A stretch of DNA of 64,000 nucleotides from Fimicolochytrium jonesii (lineage: Eukaryota), in NCBI RefSeq assembly GCF_025526975.1, contig NW_026515704.1, positions 62,001-126,000 on the forward strand, given 5' to 3'. Positions within the stretch are counted from its first letter, which is position 1, and each line of letters begins with the position of its first letter. The position numbers and the translations under genes are program-made. The notes under the pieces were generated by a model that ran no database searches, was not told where the DNA came from, and saw only the letters and a list, made by a program, of their open reading frames with translations. Positions 21,266 through 64,000 of the stretch are shown one piece after another.

Positions 21266-24200
21266 ATGCCCTTCTGGAACCGCTCAAAGTCTCGCTCAAA
21301 GAGCAAGAAGCGCAACAGGGCCACCACTCCGCCTCCTGACAGCTACAGGCACGCCGAGCACCTCATGCCCCCGCCCAGGAGCTTCTTTGGACTGGGTTCG
21401 AGGAAGGGGACTCCGTCGCCGTCGAGCAGTCCGTCCAGAGGGAGTGGGAGTGCGAATAGTTATAGTGCGGACGCGGATAGGGGGAGGCAAGGGAGGAATG
21501 ATCATTCTAGGTAAGGCCCCGCGAATGAAGCGTTCCGAGCGAGTTCCAAGCGGAGCAAGGAGGAATGCTCGAGGGACCGGGCTGTAGGCCCAGGAACGCT
21601 TGAGAGTTGGTTCGTCTTGACTGATCCATCTCCCTCGCTTCTTAGACAAGGCTACGGCAAACCCCTCCCACGCCCCTCCCTCGAAAACCTCTCCTCCACC
21701 ACCACCACCACCACCGACTCCTGGGACGCCCTCTTCAACCTCTCCTCCCGCCCCTCCACCCCCACCGTCCCTTCCACAACGACAAAAAACACAACAGACG
21801 TAGTCGTCGTCACATCCACCGGCCCCATGTACATCATCAGCTGCGATCGGTATAATACCGTGCAGTGGTTGTTGGAGGAGACGGCAAAGAAGCTGCCGAA
21901 GGATCATGCCGAGTTGGTGGAGATTAGGGCGCCGGATGGGAGGAGGGCCGGGGTGGGGGAGAAGGTGCTTGATGTTTGTGGGGCGAATAAGGTAATTTTG
22001 AGGGAGTTCCGACCGGAGCGAGGAGAAGGGGAGCCGTGAGCGAAGCGAGCGATGGTGGCCTTTGTGACTTCGCTCGCTACGCTACTGCCCGCCCACCGCA
22101 GCCCAACATCCTCGTCGCGATCGTTTGCGCCCAACGTCATACCTCGTCTTTGCAAAAGCTTGCGCTTACGACATACGTACTCACACCCTCACCCTCTCCC
22201 GTAGATTCTGGTGGCAACAGTAGCAACCCCCGATTACACAGGTCGCGCCTCGCTCGACTCACCCTCCGGTTACATCCGTAACAAACGCGAAAGCGTCGCC
22301 CTCGACTACCTCACCTCCCGCGCCGGCGGCAGCGACCGCTCCACAACTGCCCTAACCGAACGCCGCATTTCCGTTGGCAACGAAGGCGACGAAGCCCGCA
22401 GATTCACAAGCACCGGCCGGCTGAAAGAGCGACGGGGTAGTAACAGTAACACACACCCTGATCATCACAGATTGTCAACTTCCTCACGGACCCTCTTCGA
22501 AGACTCCCCACCACCCCTCCCACCACCATCTACCTCCCGCCGCCGCCCCAGCCTCCTCCCAGACTCCCCCGACGACCGCCCCGTCTCGCCCTTACGCCGT
22601 GACCTCCCTTCCCGCACTAGCCGCGACCTCCACCTCCTGTCCTCAACCACAACCGACGACTACATCAACAGCAGCAGAAGCAGCTCCGACACCTCCCGCG
22701 GCCGTCGAAGCCGCGACGACCGGCGGGATACGTACGGAAGCGGGACGGGGAGTGAGTATATGCCATCCAGACTTAGCAGCGACGTTTCCCGCCGGACGAG
22801 CCGGGGCGAGCCCACTGACCTATCAGATCCATACCGCTCCTCGGTGGTCTCGTCACGGCAGAGTAGGGAAGAGCTGCTCTCATCGTCGTCGGGTAGGAAT
22901 AGTGGGGATCTAGGTATGACCGCGAGACCGACACGCACGGCGTCACGCATGTCCGGCCTGGACAGCGTGATGGAGGATTTGGCGAAGATGGTGGACGTCG
23001 ACGGAAACCCGTGGGATGCCACTCTCCCTCGTCCTACCACCTCTACGTCTGCGTCAAATGAGGGGATGTTGGGTGATGGGATGGTCCAGGAACCGACCCA
23101 CACGACGACATCGAAGAGTAAACGAACGTCACCACTAGCCATCAACATCTCCCGCACCGGCACACCCGTACCGCCAACACACCGAAGTAGTGTGGATAGG
23201 AAGTTGACGGAAGTGTTGAATGAGATTGGGATGGAGGTGGATGATGCTTTGGGTGTGCTCTCCCCGACGGCGGTGGACGCGCCGCCTTCGACGCCTGTGG
23301 ATCCGGACGATATGGAAATGGATGAAAGCCCGAAGAAACGAGCCGCGAGGAATAAACGCCTGACGAGGATTTCCAGGGCTAGTGCGTTGGATATATATAC
23401 CGCTTTGGGTACGTCACAACGCATCGTATAACATATCGTTTCTATTGTCTGCGGGTGGACTCACAAGTATTTTGTTCTTCCCGTCCTGCAGAACAACAAT
23501 TACAAGACGAATCATCCGCAACGGACCAACCCTCCAACCAGCAGTTGAAAACCCCAGACGCGGAAACGGCCGCCGCCCGTCGCGTGAGCAGGATCTCGCG
23601 CGCGTCGGCTTTGGAGGTTATCAGCAGCATCCACGCATCGGATCACGAGTCCGACTCCGACTCTGACACCCCGCAGGAGCCGGACGATGTCGAGGATGCG
23701 ATGATCTCACCCGCTCCGCCGGCGAATACGACTGTGAATGGGAATACTGCAGCGGCCGCCGCGTTGCCGCCAAAGGAAGATATCCGCATCCTCCTCCGCG
23801 GCCCGCCGAAGAAGGCGCAGGGGCCGGGAAGGCGGCCGAGGAGGGCTAGCCGCTCTTACCCCTCCCCCTCGTCCAATCCCCCGCCACAACAACAACAACA
23901 GCCGACATTACACCATCACAGCTCGACCAGCTCGTTGGATGCGATTCTACCGACGCCGGCGCCGACGCCGCCCGTTGGGGAGGGTGGGGAGGAGAGAGGG
24001 AGAGGGGTGGTTGTTGTGCTTGCGCCTGTTGTTCCGGCGGCGGTTAGGGAGGACGGGTGTGAGCACGGTATGGCCAAGGGGAAGGAGAGGAAAGTGGGGC
24101 AGGAGGTGGATAAGACGCCCGCTGCTGAGATGCCCGTGGGAGAGAAGGACGGCGAGGAGCGGATCGGGATCACGCCTGCCGCAGAGAAGGAAGCGGATGA

Positions 24201-37080: not shown

Positions 37081-37610
37081 GTTTGCTACATCAGATCCCG
37101 CTGATATCAGCCCAACGACCGAGCCCTCAGTAATACCGCTCGGTCTAGCGACGCTATACATCCAGTCTCGGGGTCCCATGACGCCATCGCTTCAGTCCCC
37201 AGTGGATTCAAGAGGGTTGATAGGCGAAGTGTTGAATTTCCAACCCATCGCCGTGCGATGACGCAGTCCTCTGAGTCGATTCACGTTGCGTCACCAAACT
37301 GAGCGCCCCTGACTAAATGAAGGAGCGACTGCCTATCCTCCTTGCCCGTCCACTTTGGAGAACGTGCGCTGTGTTGCTTGTCGTGGTCGTAGGTGGAAAA
37401 AGGTCTCCGGCTGTTTGGAAGGAAGAAGTTTGTCATCGCGTCGCTCGCTGCAACTTCCAACTTCCCCAAAGAAGCTGCAAGATCTAGACAGCCACACAGG
37501 CATCTTCCCACTACAGCACATACATTTACGTGCTATCGCACTACTGTCTCATACCCATATACCAGTCAAGCAACCTCCCTCCTCTTTCCTGCTCGCATTA
37601 TCTCCCTAAA

Positions 37611-40600
37611 ATGTTCACTTTCGAAGGCGACTTCAAGTCTCGTCGCAATATCAACCTGGGCGGGCGAAAGAAGGACCTGGAGGATAAGAAGGAACTACTC
37701 AGGAGGGCTCAGGCGGAGAGGAAGGAGAGGGAAAGGGAGAGGGCAAAGGAAAGGGCCGCGATTGATGTTCAGGTAAAATTCGAGGAGGGGGGCACTAGCG
37801 GGAGCGAACGAACGTGGTGTCTGTGGCCAGCGGAGGAAGGTTTGGGGCGGCGAGCGGCGCGAGGAGAGAGCGGGCGATAGCGAGCCCAACTGGTCCGTGT
37901 TCCCCACGAAGCGAGGCGCAGGAATGCTTGAGGGCTCCGAGCGAAGCGAGGCCGAGCCCTATTGGGCCGTAGACCCAGGAATGTTTGAGCCTGCTTTTCG
38001 GATCACACACCAGCCCAACACCGCTGTAGCGAGCGGAGCGAGCAGGATATTCTCCAACCATCGTGCCAACCATCGCATCGCTTCAGTCCACCAATCTCTC
38101 TTATCATTTTACAGGCCTTCTGGCGCGGCCGAAAACACATGAAGCGGTTCTACGCGTCAATCCGGGAGCAATGGGACACCGAGATCAAGTCTGCAGCAGC
38201 ATCAACATCGAACGCAATACCACCAGCGAAGGTTTCCTCGCTTGTTCGCCGCTTTCTGTTCTTCTATAGCCCTTTGATGATGGATAGGGTGCGGTTGGTG
38301 GAGTTGCTTTGTCCGTTGTTGTTGAGAGGAGGATCAGGGACATCACTGCGGAATGTGATTGCGCCGTTTCCGAGTATGGATGCGAAAGAGTGGCAGTACA
38401 TACTGGTGAAACTCTGCCGGGTGTGTCTTGCCAACCTCTTCTTCAACGACGGGTGGGTGAACGTACTGTCCTTCTCAGTCTTCGGCTACTTACCATGACT
38501 TCCAACACCGCAGAGTAAGCACAACGGACTCAAAGCAACCAAGCAACATCATACTGCTTCTGGAAGCGATCCTGAACCGAGACGCATCTGCGGCGGTTGC
38601 GACATACACCCCCGGCTGGGACTATGTACAGGAGCTGTTCTTTGTGATAGGAGATGACATGTTTGCCAAGATAAGAGCGTACATCAGCAGCCATGTGAGT
38701 TGAGTAGGGCGGCGTGTTACGGGCGTAGTGTGTCCCTGCCATCCATTCCAAAAGCTAAAGCAAATCCCCGGCTCGCGACTCCCACCAGACAATCGACCAG
38801 CGCGATCTCCCCAGCACATCCCACCTAATGGCCCTCACAACCCTGCCCCTAACCCTCCTCGAATCTCTCCCTACTCCGTCCCCCCGCCGCGACCACATCA
38901 TCGCCCTCGTCATCACTCACATCCTCACCATCGAGTACCTGCCCAACCGCATCAGCATCGACGCCCTGCAGGCCTTCTCGCAGAAATTGCGGTTTAGCGC
39001 GATTGTGGACACGTTGAATAATGGGGGAGAGGTGTATGAGCGGGTCGAGAGGGAGAGGGCGACGGGTGAGGGGGATATGTTTGCGGCGTTGTTGGGGAAT
39101 GTGTTGGCGTTTGGACAGCAGGCGGTGGGGAAGATGGGTGACGAGGCATTGGTAAGAGTTCTCGTTGGGCGTTCTCTGTCACCTCAACATCAAGTGATTC
39201 ACACATCCGATCTCAAAACCTTCAGTCAACGTACATATCCGTGCTCAGCAACCTCCTCGAGCGCCTTCCATCAAACTACCTCAACGCCCTCAACCCATCT
39301 ACCACCAACAACGCAGCCGCGCACATCCCCGACGATGACGACGACATGGATATCGACCCGGCACCCTCATCGTCAAGCAAGTCACCCTCCACGGCAACGA
39401 TTCACCCGCAACTGCGCAAATGGTTGTTGCTGCTCACCAAGCCGGCTCTGTTGGACGCGATCGTTAAGGCGTTACCGGATTCCACGTCCTCCTTGCCATC
39501 AAATCCGGGGTCGGTGGCGATATCAGAGACCGTTGCGACCTTCTTATTGTCGCTGGTGACGGCGTGGACGGCGGCCAAGACGGAGATCGCCACCATCTTG
39601 CTGTACCGCCTCGAATCCGGTAACGCGTTCCTGCGCAGGCTATGGACGTGTGTGGTCAACGGCCCGTTGTGGGCGGCTCTCAAGCGGAACGGGAGGAACG
39701 CGGTGGGGGTACTCGCTGACGAAAAGTATGCGGGCCAATGGGCGATCCTGATCCTGTTTTGCGAGTTCTTTGTCCGCGTGTTCACGACACTCGGCGATGA
39801 CGAGCTGGTGGGCGCCAAACCACCTGTTGCGGTGGACGTGCTGATTGAGCTCTCCGGCGTGTTGAAGAACGTCGTGTTTGATATGTACTGGAACGATTCT
39901 GCGCCCGGATTCCAAAGGGGAGGTTCGGCCCGGTTCCTTCAGCCGGAGTTTGCAGTCGAGCTTTTCACCCGAGTGTTACGGCAGATCCACGCGCGCGACT
40001 CCCGACGTTCTTTCTGCCCAAAAGACCACTGGCTGCTCGCCTCCCTCCCCGTCGACGAATCCACGTTCCTCGACCTCGCGCTTCAACACGACCACAAATC
40101 TGAACCCCACGACGCAAGCGATAACCACCACCTCACCAGCCCGACATCCCGTCAACCCGCCATCTCCCCGCTTTTCCCCACCCCATCCGCAACCCTCAAA
40201 CAAAGTAAAGTCATACAGTGTAGGAATGTTTTAACCCACATCCCTTTCGTGATCCCCTTCGCCATCCGCGTCAACATCTTCCGTACCTGGATCGCCGACG
40301 ACCGCAAATCCCAGCGGCTCGACGAAAACTGGATGCGCCCCGCGGCACGCGCCACCATCCGCCGCGGTAGCGTCTTCGAGGACGGGTACACGCACCTCAA
40401 CGCTCTCGGGTCACAGCTCAAACGGCGCGTCGCAATCACGTTTGTGAGCGAGCAGGGGCTGGTCGAAGCCGGGATAGACGGCGGCGGCGTGTTCAAGGAA
40501 TTCCTCACCTCCCTCTCGGCGCAAGCCTTCGACATCAACTACGGCCTGTTCCAAGCTACACCGGATAACCTGCTATACCCGTCCCCACACTCATACGCCG

Positions 40601-41673
40601 CGCAAGAGACACAATTACACCATCTCGAGTTCCTGGGCCGGATCATGGGAAAGGCATTGTACGAAGGCGTCCTCGTAAACGCGGCATTCGCAAACTTCTT
40701 CCTCGCCAAATGGCTCGGCCAGCGCAGCTACGTCGACGATCTACCTTCCCTGGACCCGGAGATGTATGCCGGCCTCATGTTCCTCAAACACTACACGGGG
40801 GATGTGGAACGCGATCTTGGGCTGACTTTCTCATTGGATAAGGATGAGTTTGGGAACATGCGCACGGTGAACTTGATACCCGATGGGAGCAACGTCGCTG
40901 TGACGAGGGAGAATCGGATCCAGTATATTTATCTGGTCGCGAACTATAAGCTGAATGTGCAGATCCAGAGGCAGTGTGCCGCCTTCTTTAGTGGGTTGAC
41001 GGATCTGATCCATCCGGGATGGTTGAGGGTTTTCAATCAGGTAAAGGCTGTTCCTCCTCTCTCCTTCCCCTTCCTTTCTCATCCTCCGCTCTTCTGATTG
41101 TTCAACTCACACCCCCCGCCCAACAGCAAGAACTCCAATCCCTCCTCGGCGGCACCACGCACCCGATCTCGATCCCGGACTTGCAGGCCCACACCACCTA
41201 CGCCGGCGGCTACACCGCGCAACACCGCACCATCGAACTCTTCTGGTCCGTCGTCTCCAACGAGTTCAGCGAGGAGGAGAAACGCGGCCTCGTCAAGTTC
41301 GTCACGAGCTGCGAACGCCCGCCGTTGATGGGGTTTGGGGAACTCAGGCCCGGGTTCTGTGTGCGCTGCGCGGGGGAGGATGTCGGGCGGTTGCGTGAGT
41401 CATCTTTGATTTGGAAGGACGGGGATGCATGTGATTCGGGGAACTGAATGGCCTTTTTTTTTGGGGGATCAGCGACGGCGTCGACGTGTGTGAATCTGCT
41501 CAAACTCCCGCCGTACACGGATATCGAGACGATGCGCACGTAAGTGCCACCCGCCACGTTGCTGGTTCCCCCCACCCGCCATACGTTTACTGACGTTTTT
41601 GCGCATCTGGATATTCTGTTTTAGGAAACTGCGGTACGCCATTAACGCCGGGGCTGGGTTTGAGTTATCGTGA
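37611..41673 (+). CDS. HUL5: HECT E3 ubiquitin ligase, UBE3C/HUL5 type, multi-exon
   Basis: N-terminal FEGDFKSRRNINLGG, IQ motif (VQAFWRG across intron 37773..38114), EAGIDGGGVFKEF, FVTSCERPPLMGF, catalytic ASTCVNLLKLP, C-terminal GAGFELS. Confidence 0.93.
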
Positions 41674-42113
41674 GGAGTCGAACGCGACAAAACATGGCGT
41701 GGGGGATTTCGGTCTCTGTTCGATTATATCTTTTTTTTGGTGTACGTGGGAAAAGAGTGATGTAGTTAGGGAGGCAATTGGTAGCATATATGTGACTGTG
41801 GATTTGTCTTTCGTTTTTTGAGGATGGATGCGGGCGGATGGGAATGTTTTGATACGCTCGCTTTGCAGAGAATATGGTCGACGTTAGATACCCATCGTTT
41901 TCGCATTGGGCGCACGTCTGGCCATCAAATGGTTATTCACTGCACATATATGCTGTGCTTATGGTACATTCCTTGATGATGCAAATGAAAATCACACCAT
42001 TGGCTCCCATGGCGTGACAACCCGTGGATATCCATCCCCAACAAACCCGACATCGCATATATCCGTCATCCACCATCCCATCCACTATCCCATCCCCACC
42101 GCATCAGACCTCC

Positions 42114-45045
42114 TCAAACCCACCCCCCGACATCAACGCCCAAAAGCAGATTATCAATGATCCTCGTGTTCCCAATCTTGACCGCGCCAGAGAGGATCGC
42201 ACTCGATGATGTCACCTCCTCTTTCGTGGCCTCCACTTTCCTTGCTGTACCCTCAGCGGACTTCGTTTTCGATTTGCTGCTGGTTCCGTTTTGTTGGGCG
42301 GTGGCGGTGGTGTCCGTGACGGATGCAGGTGCAGGTGTAACGACCGGATGTTGCCCATCCGTCCCCGCCTCCGCCTTCGCCGCTGGCGAAGAAGACTCGG
42401 ACGCAGCAGCAGCAGCCGGCTCAATCCAGTCAACCTCTCTCAACGAGTACGGATCCGCCAGACTCAAATACTCCAACACCACTTTCGGCGCCCCCTTCTC
42501 TTTCTCCGCCAGGGCGTCCTCAATCACCTTTTTCGCAGCGCCGATAACTTCCTCCCTGCTCACTCCCCGCTCGCGTTGTGTCTCATACACACCCTGCGCA
42601 GCCAGGAGAGCTTTATACAGCAGGGGTGCTTTTGCCCGTTCCGCGGTGGATAGGTACCTATTCCGCGAGCTCATCGCCAACCCATCACTTTCCCTGACAG
42701 TGGGGACCACGACGATTTTCAACGGGACGAGAAGGTCACGGACCATAGTCTTAACCACAGCGCACTGTTGGGCGTCCTTTTGTCCAAAGTACGCGTGGGT
42801 GGGTTGGACGGCGTTGAACAGTTTGGTAACGACCGTCGCGACGCCGCGGAAGAAATGAGGCCGGATGGCGCCTTCCATTTGGTGGGAGAGGCCGAGGACT
42901 GTTACGAATGTTCCTTGTTGTTGCGTGACGTCGAGCGTGATACCCGCGGGGTACATTTCGTCCACGGTGGGTGCAAAGACGACGTCGGTGGTGGCTGCTT
43001 CGCCGAGGAGTTCGAGATCGGTGGGGAGGGTGCGGGGGTATTTGGCGAGGTCTTCGGTGGGTGCGAATTGGGCCGGGTTGACGAAGATGGAGGTGACGAC
43101 GACGTCGCATTCGGAGGCGGCGCGGTGGGTGAGGTTGATGTGGCCGGAGTGGAGGGCGCCCATTGTTGGAACGAAACCGACGGTGAGGCCCTGGCGCGCC
43201 CATTGGGTGCGGAGGGTGCGGTATTCTGCAAGGGTGTGGATGACGAGTGGGTTTTGTCGGGCTGTTCCGTGTGTGACGGAATCGGTTGACAATCCTTCGG
43301 TGGTGGGGTCGGAGCTGGGGGTGGAATCCCGGCCGGCGACGGAGGCGAATGAGCGGGTTTGCGGACGGTTCGGGTTGTTCAAAGACGGCTTGATGGAAGT
43401 GCTTGTGCGCGGAGTATTTCCTACTCCCGCGATGCCGCTCGGTGGTAACGCCGGGTTTGTACCGTCCACCAGATTGACGTGCTCTGTAGAGTGGGTTGGT
43501 TTTGGGGGTGCGGCCGCAATCGTCGACGTTGCGCTAGGCTCCTCTTCCCTTGGAATCAAGTGCCCCAGCATCGGTTTACGTAGATAGGTATGAAGAACCT
43601 CCTCCGCGGGTGTCAAATGGACCCCCAAAGCTTCCAGCGTCTCGGCGCCCTCGCCAACCACGTTATCAAACTTGAGCAGCCTGACCTGGTCTCGAGTCAG
43701 CGTGAAGAGGTTCAGGGGCAGTTTCTCAAACACCATCCCCTGGACATTGCCCACGAACCAGGGCACAGAAACGACGGGTCGCCACATGTTGGCCTGCTGC
43801 AGCATGAGTTTCATCATGTCGGCGTATGTGTACACGTTGGGCCCCCCTGCTTCGATTGTTTTGCCGATGGGTTTGGGGGAGAGGACTGATGCCGCGATCC
43901 CTTTGGCTAGGTCTTCCACGTAGACAGGTTGGAATCGTGTCTCTCCTCCTCCAAAGACTGGTACCACCGGTAGGATCGTCGCCAGCTTTGCGAATCTCTG
44001 TAAACAAAAGGATTCAATCAGCAGCGTTTTCTAATGACATACGTTCGATGATTGGTTGGTTGGAAAACTAAAGGATGCCCTGCTCACTCCCCGCGCGACG
44101 AGGACATTGGACAGGATGGGCTATGGGCCAGTGTGGTGCTCGCTTCGCTCGCTGGGCACGCTAAGAGCCGTGATTAGGGGCATTGCGCCTTTGGCGCATG
44201 GAACTCGCTCCGCTCTCGTTCCCTCTGGTAGACTTCACGGTCTCCCAGACCGAACCAATCCTGCACCTCGCATCGCTCCTTGCAGACAACCACCCTCGCT
44301 CGCTTCACTCGCGTCTGCAACCTGCAATCCCTTTGCCCGCCGCAGCCAACTACCATCGCTCGGTCCGCTCGCGGCTCGCTGACAATCGGACTCACATTGA
44401 AGAAATCATCGTCGGGCCCAAAAACAATACTGGGCCGAATAATCGTCACCTCATCCCTCAACACACTCCTCACCGCATCCTCGCCCCTCCCTTTGCTCCT
44501 CGCATACGGAATGTCACTCTCCGGATCCGCTCCAATCGCGCTCACATGCACCAACCTCGCCCCAACCTCCTTGGCCACCTTCGCCACACTCCTAGGCCCA
44601 TGTTCATGAACACTGTCGAAGGTGTATTTCGGGTGTTGCTCGTGCATGATCCCAACGAGGTTGACGATCCCCGTGGCGTCGGCGCAGGCTTTGGCGAGGG
44701 AGGCTGGGTCGGTGATGTCGGCGTGGCAGGGGGGGAGGACGCGGGAGAGGAGGGAGGGTGGGGATGTGGGGGGGAGGAAGGAGGCTAGGTCGGATTGTTT
44801 GGTGGTTAGGAGGGGTGGGGATTTGGGGTTTATGCGACGGGAGGCGAGCTGGACGCGGACGGTGGGTGAGGCAGAGAGGATGGCGCGTGCGACTGATCTT
44901 CCGATGAAGCTGTGGAAGAAAGGGGACGAATGAGGATGTGCATGGGTACAGTTGCAATAGGCTTGAACTGCGGGACGTACCCCTGGCCGCCAAGGATGAC
45001 GACCTTGCCGCCCCCGACCGCAGCCGCGGCGTGAGCTTGGGACAT
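42114..45045 (-). CDS. Fusion protein (820 aa): NDUFA9-family SDR + linker + pantoate-beta-alanine ligase (PanC/PAN6); exons 45045..44981, 44909..44396, 43997..42114
   Basis: SDR: GGQGFIG, VNLVGI, HVSAIG, YARSK, IRPSIVFG, QPVYVEDLA. PanC: GFVPTMGALHSGH, SIFVNPAQF, RPHFFRGV, FGQKDAQQ, GLAMSSRN, RIIDN. The SDR C-terminal part and the whole PanC lie in one uninterrupted ORF. Confidence 0.88.
44075..44395 (-). repeat. Intron-resident dispersed repeat, homologous to 63379..63628
   Basis: Shared blocks in the same order: gcgacgagga, tggacagga, cgctaagagc.gtg.t.agggg.attgcgcc.ttggcgca.ggaactcgctccgctc, gtctcccagacc, cctgcacctcg, tcgctc.ttgcag, gcggctcgc. Confidence 0.9.
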
Positions 45046-45815
45046 TTGATCTATGGTTGCGAAGGTGGACGAACTGAAGCGGGCGTCAGCCAGAGAGAGA
45101 TGCAGCAAAGGGTAGGTGTAACGAGTACAGTATGCTATGGACCACGGGAGGCCGCTGCCAGGGGAGTGTTTGTTTGCGAATGCTGTCCCACTGGGGTTGT
45201 TGGCCGTGGTGATCTTCCGCGGGCGTGGGAAAGTGGAAAGCTTTGGTCTGGGAGCAGGTCTCGATCGGGAGGATCCCCTCAGCCCTGTGTCAACCCTAAC
45301 ACGGACAGTTGTTGCTCATGCACATGCGCAACGCATCTACTATACAGTATCTCATCAACTCCAACAGGCGGCATGATGAGAGGGGCATGGGCGCCTATAG
45401 ACCGTTCGTACCAAATAACGCCGATGCTTCCTTCATTTAGCACAAGCTCACTTGCATACGTTAGGAGGAATAGGAAGTTGGCATCGAAAGATTGGAAGGT
45501 ATGGGGTCTGATGAACGATTTGCATGGAACGAACAGATGCTGCCAACATAGCCTCAACATTCGGATTCTGATGACCCCGGCCATCCGTCTCGATGTGGAT
45601 ATGTGGATTCAAAGGATCGAAACGTGCGCCGTGCATGCAGGCCGTACAATCAGCAGGAGGACGGGAAGATGCCCGAGAAAGGCAGGGGGTGACTGACAGC
45701 AACCGACAGCAACATCCAGCGTGACTCAATCGCGCGCGTTGCGCTTCGAAAAACGTCGGTTGCTTCTCAATCACCACTCCCGTCGTCACTTGATTCCCTG
45801 TCCCAAGTTGCAGAC

Positions 45816-46515
45816 ATGGTACGTACCTGAACCACCCTTCCTAAAGAGACAGTTGTTACTTCGTCGGTTGGGTGGGACACAGAGCGGCTTGAGGTTCACT
45901 CGTCGACATGGTCACCTTTGTCGCGGAGAGTTCATGTTGGAGGACGAAGGAACAGGAAGGCCTGCTAGCTGAGAACAGATAGAGCTCCGAGGGACCCGGA
46001 GATAAGGGCGGTGGCAGCAGGCTATCCTCCTGTCTATCGATTTTGGGAGGATGAGAAGGGTCCTGGGTGACGACAAGTGATCTGGTCCGACTACCACTCC
46101 CTGACATCGGAGTCCTGACCATCGTTTCCTCCTTCCGTCAGTCCGCCGCCTACAAACAAGCCAGCAAGATAATCCCCCTCTTTGACCGGGTACTCATCCA
46201 GCGGATCAAGGCTCCCGAGGTAAGCCTCAACTTCCCTTGCCCTGTCACCCCACACTCCCACTAACCCCCTCCACCCCCCAGCGCACCGCCTCAGGCCTCT
46301 TCATCCCCGAACAGGCCCGCTCAACCCTCAACGAAGGCGTAGTCGTCGCCGTCGGCCCCGGCGCGCCATCAAAGGACGGTAGCAGCCTGCGCGCGATGAG
46401 CGTCAAGCAAGGGGAGCGGGTGCTGTTGCCGCCGTACGGGGGGAACACGGTTAAGATTGCGGAGCAGGAGTTCTTTTTGTACAAGGAGGACGAGATTTTG
46501 GGCAAGTTGGAGTAG
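45816..46515 (+). CDS. HSP10: Mitochondrial co-chaperonin HSP10; exons 45816..45818 (ATG only), 46142..46219, 46282..46515
   Basis: PLFDRVLIQR, TASGLFIPE, GVVVAVGPG, VLLPPYGG, EILGKL; ATG|GTACGT first exon gives MSAAYKQ in frame. Confidence 0.93.
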
Positions 46516-47474: not shown

Positions 47475-48279
47475 ATTGTTGTTCTACCCGTTTGGAGGGA
47501 AGGATTGTGAAGTGTGAGAGTTGGTTTCGCTCACTCTTGCTGTTCCTTCGAATATAGGTTGATCCAATGAAAGGCGTTATGGAAACGGACTCGGGTGGAG
47601 ATTTGGGTAAGAGTAGCCGTTTGGGATTGGATGTCGTGGGGGATGGTGGTGTGGGGGGACGGGAGCTATGGGGCGGTGGCAAGGCGAGGGGATGTGAAGA
47701 CGGGTTTTTTTGCATGTTGTTTATGTCATTTGAAGTATAATATATGCATCTACCCGCAAACAATGCTTCTTGCCTGTACATGATTCTGCATGCCCCATGT
47801 ATCTATTTTATGTGCATCATGCGCCCCAGCTTCCCAAGTGACGCTTCCTGAGGGACATGTGGTGGCAGAAAGTAGCCCCCCTCGAAACGAGGTTGTGATG
47901 GTCATATTTGAGTAAGGTTTTCATGCCCCGTTTCCTTTCCTTGGCCATTGACCCACGCGAAGAAAAGGCGCTTAATAACAATTTAGCATCGCCACATGCG
48001 CTGTGGAGAGAAGGTTGAGGAGAAGTATAAACTGTGTACAGTATGTACATAGGAGGTGTCGGGCGCCGGTGAAGGGAAAACGTCCAAATGCAAATGCGCG
48101 CGTCCGATAATTGCCCTTGCTATTTGAAAGTTGCTGAGCGCGCCCCGCTTTCCTCCAAAATCCCACCCCTCACCAATTGACATTCCCCACCCTCCATCCG
48201 CACAGCAACACTCCCAGCACAGAGCGCTGTACCCAACCATCCCTCAAACTCCCTAACTTATATCCCCGAAACAGAAACA

Positions 48280-51200
48280 ATGTCAGACAGCGAAGACGAC
48301 GTCCCCCTCCTCGCGCGTCGCAGCGCAAACAAACCCACCACCACCACCTCCGACTCCCATCCACAATCACCCGCCAAACCCGTGAAAGACGAACCCGCCG
48401 CCGCCGCCGCCGCGCACGATGATGAATCGGAGTCGGAGATTCCGTTGGCGCAGCGGAAGAGGGCTTTGAGTGGTGGTGGTATGTCGCGAGAGAAGCTAAT
48501 GGGGGGTTCGGAGTCGGTGATTGATCTGGGGTTGGTTTTAGGGGCGAAAACGACGACAGCGAAGAGGGGGAAGAAGGTGGTTGAGTCGGACAGTGATTCT
48601 GATGTGCCTTTGGTGAGACTGCCGACGATTTCCAACGTTCAATTCAGCGTGGTGCTTTTACTCATTGCTGTGCTGTGTTCGTGTTCATAGGCGAAGCGGT
48701 TAAAGAAGGAACCGGCGGCGAAAGCGAAGACGAATGGGACGGCGAAGGTGAGACGTTCTTTTTCCGAGTTGCCTTGATATCTTGAACTTTAGAAACTGAC
48801 TCCTTTTTTTCCAACGATGAAGACAACGTCCCGAAAACGCACAAAAGCCGACGTGGACTCCGACACCAGCGACGCAGCGACTCCCGAAAAGAAACCGCGG
48901 AAAAGCAGCGCAAGCACCAAAAAGAAGGCGTCCAAAATCGACACATCCATAACACCCGTCGTCGTCAAAGAGGGCACGGCCGGCGATCCAGCGGCGACAG
49001 GCGCAGCAAAGAAAAAGGCAGGAAAGAAAGGGGCCGCAACGAAGGATGAAGAAGATGCGCCGGCTGCAGAGGAGGAGGATGATTTCAGCTGGCTGGACAA
49101 CATGAGCGCGGATAACAGCATCAAGTGGAAATCGCTGCAGCATAATGGCCCGCTGTTTCCGCCGCCGTATGAGCCGCATGGGGTGCAGATGAAATATGAT
49201 GGTGAGCGGGGTGGTTCACTGGCCTCTGTGGGTGGGTGGGTGGGTGATGCGCGAAGTGCTGACGCAGGCGGTTCGACAGGCCAACCGGTGGAGTTATCGC
49301 CGGATTCGGAAGAAGTCGCGACGTTCTATGCGGGCGTTATGGGCACGGATTGGGACCGGAATCCAAAGTTTCGGCAGAACTTTTTCAAAGACTTTCTGGC
49401 GATTTTGGCAAAGGATAAGAAGGTAAACCCAACAGATGGGATCTTGTGCACCTGGATTCGTGGTCAAGTTTCTCACCGCGATCTCTACCAAACAGAAACC
49501 GCCAATCAAGAAGATTGAAAAGTGTGATTTCTCTCCGCTTGCCGAATATCTAGCACAGGAGAAGGAACGGAAGAAGAATATGAGCAAAGAGGAGAAACAG
49601 GTGCGCGGTTGGAATCTCATCAAATGATAGTTGCCACGACTTGCCATCAGAGATAGTCGGAACTGACGCAGATGCATCCTCGCCATCCAGAAAATCAAAG
49701 AAGAAAAAGCCGCCTTAGACGAAAAATACGGTATCGCCTACGTCGACTCCCACAAAGAGAAAGTCGGCAACTACCGTATCGAGCCCCCTGGCCTCTTCCG
49801 CGGGCGCGGCGAGCACCCCAAAACCGGATCCCTCAAAACGCGCGTCCTCCCCGAGCAGGTCACCATCAACATCGGCGAGGACGCCAAAGTCCCCGACCCG
49901 CCCGCCGGCCACAAGTGGGGCAAAGTGATCCATGACCCGACGGTGACGTGGCTGGCGACGTGGAAGGAGAATGTGAATGATAATACAAAGTATGTTTTCT
50001 TGTCGGTGAATTCGAGGTTTAAGGTTGTGAGTGATCGCGCGAAGTTTGACAAAGCGAGGGAGCTTAAGGTTCGTGTTTTGCGCCCTGTGTTCTGTTGCAT
50101 TTGCGTCTCGCTTGGCCCTCCCCTTGCTGACTTGCAGTTTTATGATCTTTCAGAAAAAAGTGCACGAAATCCGCAAAGACTACATGCGCGAAATGAAAGA
50201 CAAAGAAATGGGCAACCGCCAGCGCGCAACCGCCATGTACCTCATCGACCAATTCGCCCTGCGAGCGGGCAACGAAAAAGGCGAAGACGAGGCCGACACC
50301 GTCGGTTGCTGCTCATTGCGATACGAGCACGTTATCCTGGAACCGCCTAACAAGATCCATCTGGATTTCTTGGGCAAGGACTCGATTCGCTTCTCGAAGT
50401 GTCTGACGGTGGAGGAGGATGTGTTTAAGAATATCAAGATTTTTAAGAAACCGCCGAAGAAGGAGGGGGATGATTTGTTTGATCGGTTGACTGTAAGTCT
50501 GGGGGCTATCTGCCAATCCCTATCATTACCTTGGCGATTAACCCTCTCCATAACGCGTTCTCTCTCCAGACGGCCTCGCTCAACAAACACCTCACAAAAT
50601 ACATGCCGGGCCTCACCGCCAAAGTTTTCCGCACCCACAACGCCTCGGCAACCTTCCAACTCAAACTCAACGAGCTGACCCCCGCCGACGGCACGATCTC
50701 CCAAAAACTCTACGCCTTCACCGAAGCCAACCGCCTCGTCGCCGTCCTCTGCAACCACCAAAAAGGCGTCGCGAAGAATTTCGGAGAAGCGATGGCGCGC
50801 TCGCAGAATGCCGTCCTTGGGGTCAAATACGAGCGGTCGTTAGTCAAAGCCCAGCTTCTTGACCTCCTAGACGCGAAATCGAAGAAGAAACGGCCGGAGC
50901 TGAGCGAAGCCGAGGAAGGGGTCACGCCCGAATTCATCAAGACGTACCTGGCAGCGAAAGAGGAAAAGGAGAAAGTGAAGCTGGAGAAGATGAAGGCGGA
51001 GAACAAGGAGGTGAAGGTGAAGAAGGAAGCGCCCGCGCCGACCGTGGAGCGGCTGGAGAAGATGCTGGTGAAGTTGAATGAGCAGGTGGAGGCGAAGGAG
51101 GAGATTGTGCGGAGAAAAGTACGTTGCATTCCATATCTCCCTCCCCGCTCCCTAAACATACATATTCACCGAAATGTATTCATCGTATTCAACAGGACAT

Positions 51201-51454
51201 GACGAAAGACACAGCCCTGGGAACTTCCAAAACCAACTACCTGGACCCGCGGATAACCTTCGCCTGGTGCTCCAAGCACGGCGTCCCCGTCGCGAAGGTG
51301 CTTCCGCAGGGGCTGAGGGTGAAGTTTAAGTGGGCGGAGGCGTATATTAAGAAGCATGGGGCTGATTGGGTATGTGTTGAAACGTTCGTTGGGAGCTTGG
51401 GGTCACTTTTCTGATTTTGAATGGCGGGTTTCTTTTCTTTGACAGCAATTTTGA
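48280..51454 (+). CDS. TOP1: DNA topoisomerase I (type IB), multi-exon
   Basis: [64 protein letters not shown], catalytic [11 protein letters not shown]; last micro-exon CAA TTT TGA at 51446..51454. Confidence 0.97.
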
Positions 51455-62800: not shown

Positions 62801-64000
62801 CAGCAGCTGTTATGACTAGATGGTTCCCGGCGGGGTGGACGGTTACCAGCCCTCGCGGGTGAGATGGTGGGTACAGATGATGGATGTTGGATCTTTGCGC
62901 TTCCGACGAGTAGCCTGTCGGATGGGAATCAAACATGAGCTGGATGTGACGGGTGTCGCAAACCTGCATGTGCTGTTTGACCTCACTTACCATAAATGTG
63001 CGCTAGTTGCAGAGAACTTGATGGGAGGGTGGTGTTGATGGAGTTGGCGTAGGTGGAGGGTACCTCTATGTGTTTTAAAAACGCTAGATTCGACTGATAG
63101 GGTGCTGGAATGAGCGGTTGTTCTTCCCGAATTCGCATCTCCAGGAGTCCTCCCTTCCGCTACGACTGGAAACGGCCGGCATGAAATCAACTACTCGCCT
63201 GCTCTCTAAACTCATCCAACCATGCTTGCTCATTCATCGCAAACGGAATCTCATTCTCCAGCGCTAACCCCAAAAAGAAACATTTTCTTTAGTGTCAATG
63301 TTTCCGTCAGACCCATCAAGCCATCAACCCATCGACATCCATCAACCATGATCCGTCAACTAACTATCCACATACAACATCCTGTTCGCTCCGCTCGCGA
63401 CGAGGATGCTGGGATGCGGTGGACAGGACCGCACTCGCTAAGAGCGGTGGTCAGGGGTATTGCGCCGTTGGCGCAAGGAACTCGCTCCGCTCGCGCTCGC
63501 TTCGCTCGCAAGGCTTTCGCTTTGGTCGATCTAGCAGTCTCCCAGACCAAACCCAACCCTGCACCTCGCCGTCGCTCGTTGCAGTTCAACACCCCCGGCT
63601 CGCTCTCGGTCGCGGCTCGCCTACTCACCAAGCAAATCCTCATCCCCACCGCCATCCGTCCTCTCCCCATCCTCGTCGACATCCCCACTACTACCGCCTC
63701 GAACCCTCGTGGTCGACTTGACCGACGAGGTAGAAGACTTTGCGGACCCCTTTTTGCCTACATGCGTTTTGCCAAGGTCGTGAAGTGACGGGGCGGTGCG
63801 ACGGCGGGCGCGGATGCGGGCGGGCCAGCAGGGGCAGGAGCCGGTCATCCCTTTGTGGACGGTGGAGGGAGGGGATGGATAGTATGCAAATAGGTTGTGC
63901 CTGGGGCGTAGTCGGTTGTCGCTTCCCGAGGGCCCGCGGACGTTCGCTTCGAAGTGCGGAGGTGGGCAGGAAGGAGCAGAACGCGTCGCTTGATGACACA
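59840..64000 (-). CDS. EML/EMAP-like WD40 microtubule-associated protein, multi-exon; 5' end probably at or beyond window edge
   Basis: RSNIHHL, YFRHH...ICIHPDG...ASAELG, VWGLAPHP...LTCGNDG, GHSNFVSALDWSVDSKRLQSNSG, DWASATCPLSW, HAGPVGRV...STGAGDGCVLQ. Confidence 0.8.
63379..63628 (-). repeat. Intron-resident dispersed repeat, homologous to 44075..44395
   Basis: Same ordered blocks as the copy at 44 kb; begins just inside a GTGAGT donor at 63628. Confidence 0.9.

What the first reader, a model, noticed from the sequence alone, without database searches (positions are those of the whole stretch)
42114..45045. In-frame fusion of an NDUFA9-family SDR to pantothenate synthetase (PanC)
Seen: one 820-codon gene; the SDR C-terminal part, a linker of roughly 100 aa and a complete PanC share a single stop-free exon. 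The SDR keeps GxxGxxG, a basic SRR after beta-2 (suggesting NADPH) and Ser plus YxxxK. Known: PanC ligates pantoate and beta-alanine, pantoate is made by NADPH-dependent ketopantoate reduction, and NDUFA9 is the NADPH-binding SDR subunit of complex I. Inference: either this SDR is a non-canonical ketopantoate reductase feeding PanC (a Rosetta-stone link), or the fusion couples a complex-I-related protein to CoA/phosphopantetheine supply. I know of no described fusion of this kind.
Basis: partly seen in the sequence, partly recalled or inferred. Interest (0 to 1): 0.9.

Follow-up and report, generated by a model that had tools for sequence, protein, structure and literature searches.

The report
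Chytrid two-in-one mitochondrial precursor gene
In this soil chytrid fungus the vitamin B5-making enzyme PanC is encoded in one unbroken reading frame behind an NDUFA9-like reductase, a pairing also annotated in Spizellomyces punctatus, and the joint protein is likely cut in two inside mitochondria rather than working as a new two-step vitamin enzyme.

Summary
Observation confirmed: three exons give 820 codons; the SDR end, a 108-aa linker and an intact PanC share one stop-free exon. Residues 1-332 equal a public 'partial' Fimicolochytrium jonesii SDR. The same fusion is annotated in Spizellomyces punctatus (658 aa), in the other family of Spizellomycetales; no further fused protein was listed. 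The SDR is a fungal paralog of alphaproteobacterial type, probably not the canonical complex I subunit. In both fusions the linker holds the longest internal acid-free run, ending in RS[F/Y], like the proven internal MPP site of yeast Arg5,6 and like the presequences of unfused chytrid PanCs. Best reading (0.55): a composite mitochondrial precursor cut by MPP. The ketopantoate-reductase idea has little support: no panB/panC beside 80 bacterial orthologs, no SDR beside 80 panC loci. Weak points: no RNA data; the linker is stop-free by chance 5-15% of the time; it has an internal Met; and no clear N-terminal presequence follows the annotated start.

The parts
44981..45045 (-). Exon 1 (annotated ATG at 45045; first Rossmann strand of the SDR)
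   Evidence: residues 1-332 identical to P0138
44910..44980 (-). Intron 1, 71 nt, GT-AG
44396..44909 (-). Exon 2, SDR core with R46, S145 and Y157-x-x-x-K161
43998..44395 (-). Intron 2, 398 nt, GT-AG, holding a dispersed repeat (72% over 182 nt to 63436-63617)
42114..43997 (-). Exon 3: one stop-free frame from SDR residue 194 through the linker and PanC to the stop codon
43581..43997 (-). C-terminal part of the NDUFA9-like SDR (residues 194-332); lacks the NKRxH tail found in many unfused orthologs
43257..43580 (-). Linker, residues 333-440 (108 aa), with an in-frame Met at residue 336 (43571-43569)
43329..43463 (-). Acid-free 45-aa stretch (residues 372-416) containing R408-S-F410 (43355-43347): predicted internal presequence remnant and MPP site
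   Evidence: motif type from PMC8734313 passages
42117..43256 (-). Pantothenate synthetase domain (residues 441-820) with HxGH, NPxQF, GQKD and SSRN motifs
42216..42425 (-). 70-aa low-complexity insertion in the PanC C-terminal domain, absent from the 11 other aligned chytrid PanCs
45046..45315 (-). Open in-frame stretch upstream of the annotated ATG, Arg-rich, with an R-F-S motif and a CTG at 45282: possible unannotated N-terminal presequence (unresolved; alternatively an upstream exon at 45584/45560-45535 spliced in)
   Evidence: candidate only

Best explanation
The gene encodes an NDUFA9-like reductase and pantothenate synthetase in one reading frame, and the product is likely a composite mitochondrial precursor that the matrix processing peptidase (MPP) would cut at the RS[F/Y] site in the linker, releasing two proteins that probably work independently. 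Shown: one frame, two intact domains, the same pair in S. punctatus, an acid-free linker run with the motif in both, and presequence-like N-termini on unfused chytrid PanCs. Inferred: the fusion arose when the SDR gene lost its tail and stop and ran into the neighbouring PanC gene, whose old targeting sequence became the linker. It probably predates the split of the two Spizellomycetales families, with later loss or fission of the SDR half in Geranomyces, Powellomyces and Thoreauomyces. Import, cleavage (predicted halves of about 43.6 and 43.7 kDa from an 87 kDa precursor) and the role of the freed SDR are untested.
For: Same fusion in S. punctatus P0001, in the other family of the order. In P0001 the longest D/E-free run of the whole protein (327-364, 38 aa) spans the linker and holds RSY; in the window the longest run after the N-terminus (372-416, 45 aa) is in the linker and holds RSF. 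Linker shuffles give RS[FY] in 0.9% (window) and 7.5% (P0001) of 50,000 trials; R-x-F/Y is absent from both folded domains and the PanC insert in the window, and occurs once in P0001's domains (motif chosen after inspection). The experimentally mapped internal MPP site of yeast Arg5,6 is RSY (PMC8734313, passages). Of 10 unfused chytrid PanC models examined, 8 have N-terminal extensions with at most 1 acidic residue, and 6 match an R-x-[FYL] cleavage pattern. P0001 has a classic N-terminal presequence and no Met in its linker. Both fusions lack the NKRxH tail present in 16 of the 22 unfused SDRs checked, as expected if the SDR end was joined to PanC's leader. The two halves have different distributions and no bacterial linkage, which fits a passenger pairing.
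Against: At the annotated ATG the window's protein has only a 12-aa Ala/Gly leader without Arg or Lys, whereas PMC8734313 reports that internal MPP cleavage needs a strong N-terminal presequence. Upstream extensions are possible but unproven. The acid-free run itself is only marginal against linker shuffles (6%), and the first 40 linker residues are acidic. The presequence call is a hand-made heuristic: TargetP and MitoFates were not available. Met336 could start PanC separately. Only two fused sequences were seen, and database 'fusions' of chytrid PanC with unrelated downstream genes are common (P0023, P0024, P0027, P0028, P0035, P0228, P0229), so P0001 on its own could be a merged model. In the quick PanC tree the two fused PanCs are not sisters (no branch separating them reaches 95).
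Confidence: 0.55

Rival explanations
1. Two tandem genes whose frames merely run together in this species: PanC is made mainly from its own transcript starting near Met336, and the SDR ends by alternative splicing or carries the tail as rare read-through.
For: Met336 lies three codons after the SDR end and would give PanC a 105-aa leader, similar in length to unfused chytrid PanCs (up to 122 aa). The linker is stop-free by chance in 5-15% of trials. A GTAAAC donor-like site sits at 43579, and 2 of its 7 possible acceptors would end the SDR early. The public annotation stops the SDR at residue 332.
Against: None of the 11 candidate introns in the linker has a branch-site motif, and the linker has no AT-rich terminator-like patch (at most 57% AT in 30 nt). 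A PanC promoter would have to lie inside SDR coding sequence. The leader from Met336 starts acidic, unlike most unfused chytrid PanC leaders. The S. punctatus linker has no Met.
Confidence: 0.2
2. A real fusion that stays uncut: the SDR tethers PanC to the inner membrane or complex I, or the two simply tolerate being linked.
For: The frame is continuous and the pair is kept in two families. The window's start lacks the strong presequence reported to be needed for internal cleavage. NDUFA9 binds complex I at the membrane (PMC8762328, passages).
Against: An RS[F/Y] motif in an acid-free run is kept in both linkers although their lengths (26 and 108 aa) and other residues differ.
Confidence: 0.15
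3. One reading: the SDR is a non-canonical NADPH-dependent ketopantoate reductase that feeds pantoate to PanC.
For: PanC is often fused to true ketopantoate reductases (PanE/ApbA and DUF2520 domains in many rows). The SDR keeps Ser, YxxxK and the basic residue after strand 2 in 88-89 of 89 rows, so it may be catalytic. A PanE/ApbA-family gene lies tail-to-tail with the SDR in 3 of 80 bacterial loci. Toxoplasma makes pantoate in the mitochondrion with a KPHMT-KPR fusion (10.1101/2021.10.04.462976, passages).
Against: No ApbA/PanE hit in the SDR. 0 of 80 bacterial SDR loci hold panB or panC, and 0 of 80 panC loci (34 of them at least 6 kb long) hold the SDR, while PanB-region queries hit up to 34 of those panC loci as a positive control. 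The conserved neighbours are bacA/uppP, an RNase D-like exonuclease, lpt genes, rpoN, a GST and queG. No SDR hit among the 120 listed is named from Geranomyces, Powellomyces, Thoreauomyces, Batrachochytrium, Synchytrium or any ascomycete, though PanC hits are named from all of these. NDUFA9 has no shown catalytic activity.
Confidence: 0.07
4. Assembly or sequencing error that removed a stop codon or joined two loci.
For: No reads could be laid on the region.
Against: The window has no N. The same junction order occurs in an independent genome (P0001). Linker GC3 (0.65) resembles the coding parts (0.62-0.72).
Confidence: 0.03

Closest known systems
Mitochondrial composite (tandem) precursors cut internally by MPP: S. 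cerevisiae Arg5,6 and Atp25; S. pombe Rsm22-Cox11, Etp1 and SPAC22A12.08c; rice RPS14 fusion (PMC8734313: first of 7 parts plus passages; PMC5063612: passages)
   Same: One ORF with two complete domains joined by a presequence-like linker with an R-2-type motif (RSY in Arg5,6 and in S. punctatus; RSF here).
   Different: A new partner pair. Cleavage is not shown. No strong N-terminal presequence at the window's annotated start. Seen only in Spizellomycetales, not across fungi.
Spizellomyces punctatus 'pantoate-beta-alanine ligase' XP_016607058.1 / KNC99018.1 (P0001)
   Same: Same SDR + PanC order, same SDR end point, RS[F/Y] in the linker; 62% identity to exon 3.
   Different: 658 aa, 26-aa linker without Met, clear N-terminal presequence, no 70-aa PanC insert. 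Its exon structure could not be seen here.
NDUFA9 (39-kDa complex I subunit) and its alphaproteobacterial homologs ('complex I NDUFA9 subunit family protein'; PDB chain 9g83_P)
   Same: Same atypical SDR family, Rossmann motif and basic residue after strand 2; Atlas hits at 0.98-0.99 by features and TM 0.85-0.87; 167 bits to 9g83_P.
   Different: Scores far lower against fungal NUEM/NDUFA9 chains (49-61 bits) than against the bacterial chain. It forms its own fungal clade (SH-aLRT 100 in a quick tree without canonical NDUFA9). That 9G83 is an alphaproteobacterial respiratory supercomplex is recalled, not from a call.
PanC fusions with PanB, PanE/ApbA, DUF2520, Cmk and HPPK; Toxoplasma KPHMT-KPR
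   Same: PanC is a frequent fusion partner.
   Different: Those partners are pathway or cofactor enzymes with their own Pfam families; the partner here is an NDUFA9-type SDR without any pan-gene linkage.
Coq11-Coq10 fusions in five fungal genomes (PMC6056717, passages)
   Same: An atypical mitochondrial SDR related to NDUFA9 fused to another mitochondrial protein in a narrow fungal group.
   Different: A different partner; this SDR was not compared with Coq11 sequences here.

Membership tests
Pantothenate synthetase (PanC) | PF02569 and TIGR00018 above curated cut-offs | tested here: met
   325 bits vs 20.7; 302 bits vs 212.75
Pantothenate synthetase (PanC) | HxGH, NPxQF, G[EQ]KD and SSRN motifs (motif roles recalled) | tested here: met
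   All present; key positions shared by 48-49 of 49 aligned rows
Pantothenate synthetase (PanC) | ATP-dependent ligation of pantoate and beta-alanine | not testable with these tools
   needs an assay or panC complementation
NDUFA9-like atypical SDR family | Full-length similarity and fold of NDUFA9-like SDRs; GxxGxxG, basic residue after strand 2, Ser, YxxxK | tested here: met
Canonical fungal complex I subunit NDUFA9/NUEM | Closer to solved fungal NUEM chains than to bacterial homologs | tested here: not met
   167 bits (9g83_P) vs 60.6, 55.9, 55.7 and 49.2 bits for 7zm7_E, 7b0n_P, 6gcs_E and 9iho_P; plant and mammalian chains 95-123 bits
Canonical fungal complex I subunit NDUFA9/NUEM | Is the only NDUFA9 gene of the genome and sits in complex I | not testable with these tools
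MPP-cut composite mitochondrial precursor | Two complete proteins in one ORF | tested here: met
   DNA level; second species P0001
MPP-cut composite mitochondrial precursor | Internal MTS-like segment with an R-2-type motif at the junction | tested here: met
   heuristic only (acid-free run plus RS[F/Y] in both linkers); TargetP and MitoFates not available
MPP-cut composite mitochondrial precursor | Strong N-terminal presequence | tested here: inconclusive
   present in P0001; absent at the window's annotated ATG, with candidate upstream extensions
MPP-cut composite mitochondrial precursor | Import and cleavage into two mature proteins | not testable with these tools
   needs an import assay, purified MPP or N-terminomics
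Ketopantoate reductase (PanE/ApbA or DUF2520 type) | PF02558/PF08546 or PF10727/PF10728 domains | tested here: not met
   only Epimerase, RmlD, NAD_binding_10 and 3Beta_HSD hits at E up to 0.01; no such family among P0138's precomputed domains
Ketopantoate reductase (non-canonical) | Genomic linkage of homologs with pan genes | tested here: not met
   0 of 80 with panB/panC; 3 of 80 with a convergent ApbA-family gene; 0 of 80 panC loci with the SDR
Ketopantoate reductase (non-canonical) | NADPH-dependent reduction of ketopantoate | not testable with these tools
   needs an assay

The most novel reading that the evidence does not exclude
The fusion is kept because the halves cooperate: the orphan alphaproteobacterial-type NDUFA9 paralog of fungi is a catalytically active reductase, either a hidden ketopantoate reductase or a complex-I-associated NADPH sensor, that ties mitochondrial pantothenate/CoA supply to respiration. 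That would give the first enzymatic function for an NDUFA9-family protein.
Probability: 0.12. Interest if true: 0.85.

Novelty: new member of a known kind. Interest (0 to 1): 0.45.

Why it matters
MPP-cut tandem precursors are known from only a handful of genes. This would add a natural example from early-diverging fungi in which the fusion's origin can be read from the sequence: the upstream gene's tail is lost, the downstream gene's presequence is kept as the linker, and sister genera have the stand-alone form. It also points to mitochondrial pantothenate synthesis in chytrids and draws attention to an uncharacterised second NDUFA9-type SDR, with an intact Ser/Tyr/Lys set, in chytrids, zoopagomycetes, AM fungi and basidiomycetes. 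In practice it corrects annotations: the F. jonesii SDR is 'partial' because its frame continues into PanC, and SDR-only proteins of Tieghemiomyces and Dimargaris carry the name 'pantoate-beta-alanine ligase', probably by transfer from the fusion.

Tried and rejected
No whole genome is held, so separate NDUFA9 and PAN5/PanE genes could not be sought. No RNA holder was listed; this says nothing on expression. The metagenome scan with the junction region returned 80 loci matching PanC, none starting before query residue 186, so none reached the SDR part. The first GTDB scan with a single fungal SDR found nothing; the alignment-based scan gave 80 bacterial loci. The search of 1.84 billion 50% representatives with P0001 gave 30,702 hits; none of the 150 listed covers both domain cores, but P0001 itself was not listed, so fused forms can hide in clusters. 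The SDR-PanC complex prediction gave no verdict, so binding of the halves is open. A mixed SDR+PanC alignment (A3) misaligned the halves and was dropped. Five guesses at a separately annotated PanC of this genome were not in the collection. Cryptic introns in the linker: 11 candidates, none with a branch motif. Upstream start: 69 one-intron models and 8 in-frame near-cognate codons were listed; none can be chosen without RNA. Rfam found nothing in 41500-46500 at E up to 0.1. Both trees are quick IQ-TREE runs with SH-aLRT only, midpoint-drawn, on selected rows (41 SDRs, 23 PanCs), and do not fix the order of events. Paper searches for the fusion returned 0 or four papers not about it, judged from the search listing only; one search returned 0, and searches were seen as listings. 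The original Coq11 paper was not held. Supplements were not read; fusion catalogues in supplements or subscription journals could list the S. punctatus gene.
Full report
Observation. The gene lies on the minus strand. Exons 45045-44981, 44909-44396 and 43997-42114, split by GT-AG introns of 71 and 398 nt, give 820 codons without an internal stop. Exon 3 alone carries SDR residues 194-332, a 108-residue linker and the whole PanC (PF02569 E 3.5e-97; TIGR00018 302 bits over a cut-off of 212.75). A public protein, P0138, named Fimicolochytrium jonesii 'NAD(P)-binding protein, partial', is identical to residues 1-332 and stops where SDR similarity ends. This matches the splice model and places the window in a chytrid of the Spizellomycetales. 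The open linker is not strong evidence by itself: shuffled linkers are stop-free in 5-15% of 20,000 trials. None of 11 candidate cryptic introns in it has a branch motif, and it has no AT-rich patch. No genome and no RNA run were available.

Distribution. Three homolog searches each listed their best 120 hits (of 294, 7185 and 2260). In each, exactly one protein had both SDR and PanC families: Spizellomyces punctatus P0001, 658 aa. It belongs to Spizellomycetaceae and the window's species to Powellomycetaceae. The SDR of Phlyctochytrium arcticum (P0132) is also 'partial' and ends at the same motif, so it may continue into PanC; this is untested. NCBI files that species in Chytridiales, but it groups with the two fused SDRs and Quaeritorhiza in the tree (SH-aLRT 92). 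Geranomyces (five models), Powellomyces and Thoreauomyces have PanC without an SDR in front, and no SDR from them was among the 120 listed. Quaeritorhiza has both as separate models on different contigs. None of the 150 best representatives among 1.84 billion covered both domains, but P0001 itself was hidden in a cluster there, so this is weak. One caution: seven chytrid PanC models are joined to unrelated downstream proteins and look like annotation merges. P0001 gains its weight from the window, where no intron is needed at the junction. An earlier AI note from this scan (e1-7220101) reports the fusion in S. punctatus and Gaertneriomyces with the same interpretation.

What the SDR is. It belongs to the NDUFA9-like family, but to its bacterial type. 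It scores 167 bits against PDB chain 9g83_P, 95-123 against plant and mammalian NDUFA9, and 49-61 against fungal NUEM chains. All ten clusters shown in each Atlas list are bacterial, most named complex I NDUFA9 subunit family or NADH dehydrogenase and most often Pseudomonadota. Orthologs in chytrids, Zoopagomycota, Glomeromycotina and Basidiomycota form one clade apart from the bacterial rows (SH-aLRT 100, quick tree of 41 chosen rows, no canonical NDUFA9 included). R46, S145 and K161 are invariant in 89 of 89 rows and Y157 in 88, so NADPH binding is likely and catalysis is possible. NDUFA9 itself binds NADPH with no catalytic activity shown (PMC8762328, passages). That these fungi also keep a canonical NDUFA9 is recalled and could not be tested.

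The ketopantoate-reductase idea. PanC does fuse with real reductases (PanE and DUF2520 rows), so the idea is reasonable. But the SDR has no such domain. In 80 bacterial loci around its orthologs (947 kb) there is no panB or panC; an ApbA-family gene lies tail-to-tail in 3 of 80. In 80 panC loci (429 kb) there is no SDR, while PanB-region queries hit up to 34 of them. The conserved neighbours are bacA/uppP (53 of 80), an ABC ATPase (50), lpt genes and an RNase D-like gene (45 each), a GST (33) and rpoN (30). Many fungi with PanC gave no hit for this SDR. I give the idea 0.07.

The linker. In P0001 the 26-residue linker has five Arg, no acidic residue, no Met, and an RSY motif seven residues before PanC; it lies in the longest acid-free run of the protein. 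In the window, residues 372-416 form the longest acid-free run after the N-terminus and contain RSF. R-x-F/Y occurs nowhere in the window's two folded domains or in the 70-residue PanC insert; RS[FY] arises in 0.9% and 7.5% of linker shuffles (the motif was picked after looking). The run length alone is marginal (6%). Unfused chytrid PanCs mostly start with Arg/Ser-rich, acid-poor leaders: 8 of 10 have at most one acidic residue, and 6 of 10 match an R-x-[FYL] pattern. Both fusions lack the NKRxH tail found in 16 of 22 unfused SDRs checked. In yeast Arg5,6 the internal MPP site is RSY within an MTS-like segment, and similar junctions are reported for Atp25, Rsm22-Cox11, Etp1 and rice RPS14 (PMC8734313, first part and passages). 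PMC5063612 notes that such tandems can arise by chance in-frame fusion of two mitochondrial precursor genes (passages).

Mechanism. Most likely an SDR gene lying upstream of a mitochondrial PanC gene lost its tail and stop. PanC's presequence became the linker, with Met336 possibly its old start. The joint precursor is imported and cut by MPP into halves of about 43.6 and 43.7 kDa that work separately (0.55). Import, cleavage and history are inferred. The main difficulty is the N-terminus. P0001 has a classic presequence, but the window's annotated start gives only a 12-residue Ala/Gly leader, and internal cleavage is reported to need a strong presequence. The frame is open for 90 codons upstream, Arg-rich, with an R-F-S motif and a CTG at 45282, and a short upstream exon could also splice in; several unfused orthologs also lack a leader. 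The rivals are separate PanC transcription from Met336 (0.2), an uncut tether (0.15), ketopantoate reductase (0.07) and assembly error (0.03). Whether the halves bind each other is open.

Novelty. Four literature searches did not find the fusion described (open-access library only, supplements unread). It is present, unremarked, in public annotation. It is best filed as a likely new member of the MPP-cut composite precursors, with cleavage untested. Interest 0.45; the cooperative-enzyme reading has probability about 0.12 and would merit 0.85.

Noticed in passing
window 43998-44395 and 63436-63617 (weak extra match 22031-22058): Intron 2 holds a dispersed repeat rich in TCGCT motifs, 72% identical over 182 nt to a second copy at 63.4-63.6 kb; probably a small mobile element; no Rfam match in 41500-46500.
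   Followed up: partly
window 45816-46515 (+): An Hsp10/Cpn10 gene (Pfam E 3.4e-20) is head-to-head with the SDR-PanC gene about 770 nt away, which suggests a shared promoter with a mitochondrial chaperonin.
   Followed up: partly
window 42216-42425 (-): 70-aa low-complexity insertion in the PanC C-terminal domain, absent from the 11 other chytrid PanCs aligned; the SDR also has a Pro/Ser-rich loop insertion near residues 48-80.
   Followed up: partly
P0003 (Tieghemiomyces) and P0135 (Dimargaris): SDR-only proteins are named 'pantoate-beta-alanine ligase' in NCBI, probably by name transfer from the S. punctatus fusion.
   Followed up: no
P0023, P0229, P0483, P0484: In the Siphonaria and Entophlyctis luteolus models PanC is joined to an AAA-ATPase named 26S proteasome subunit 4, and related long models share the cluster; likely a merge of neighbouring genes.
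   Followed up: no
L081:7017-7931, L082:6986-7900, L085:6997-7866 (- strand): A PanE/ApbA-family gene lies tail-to-tail with the NDUFA9-like SDR in three Kiloniellales/Rhodospirillales genomes.
   Followed up: partly
window about 37500-41670 (+) and 48200-51400 (+): Flanking genes: a HECT ubiquitin ligase convergent with the fusion gene, and DNA topoisomerase I.
   Followed up: partly
P0043, P0052, P0047, P0064, P0073, P0077, P0079: Presequence-like leaders also occur on PanC models of Mortierellaceae, Lipomyces and several agaricomycetes, often before a second Met, which hints at dual targeting of fungal PanC.
   Followed up: no
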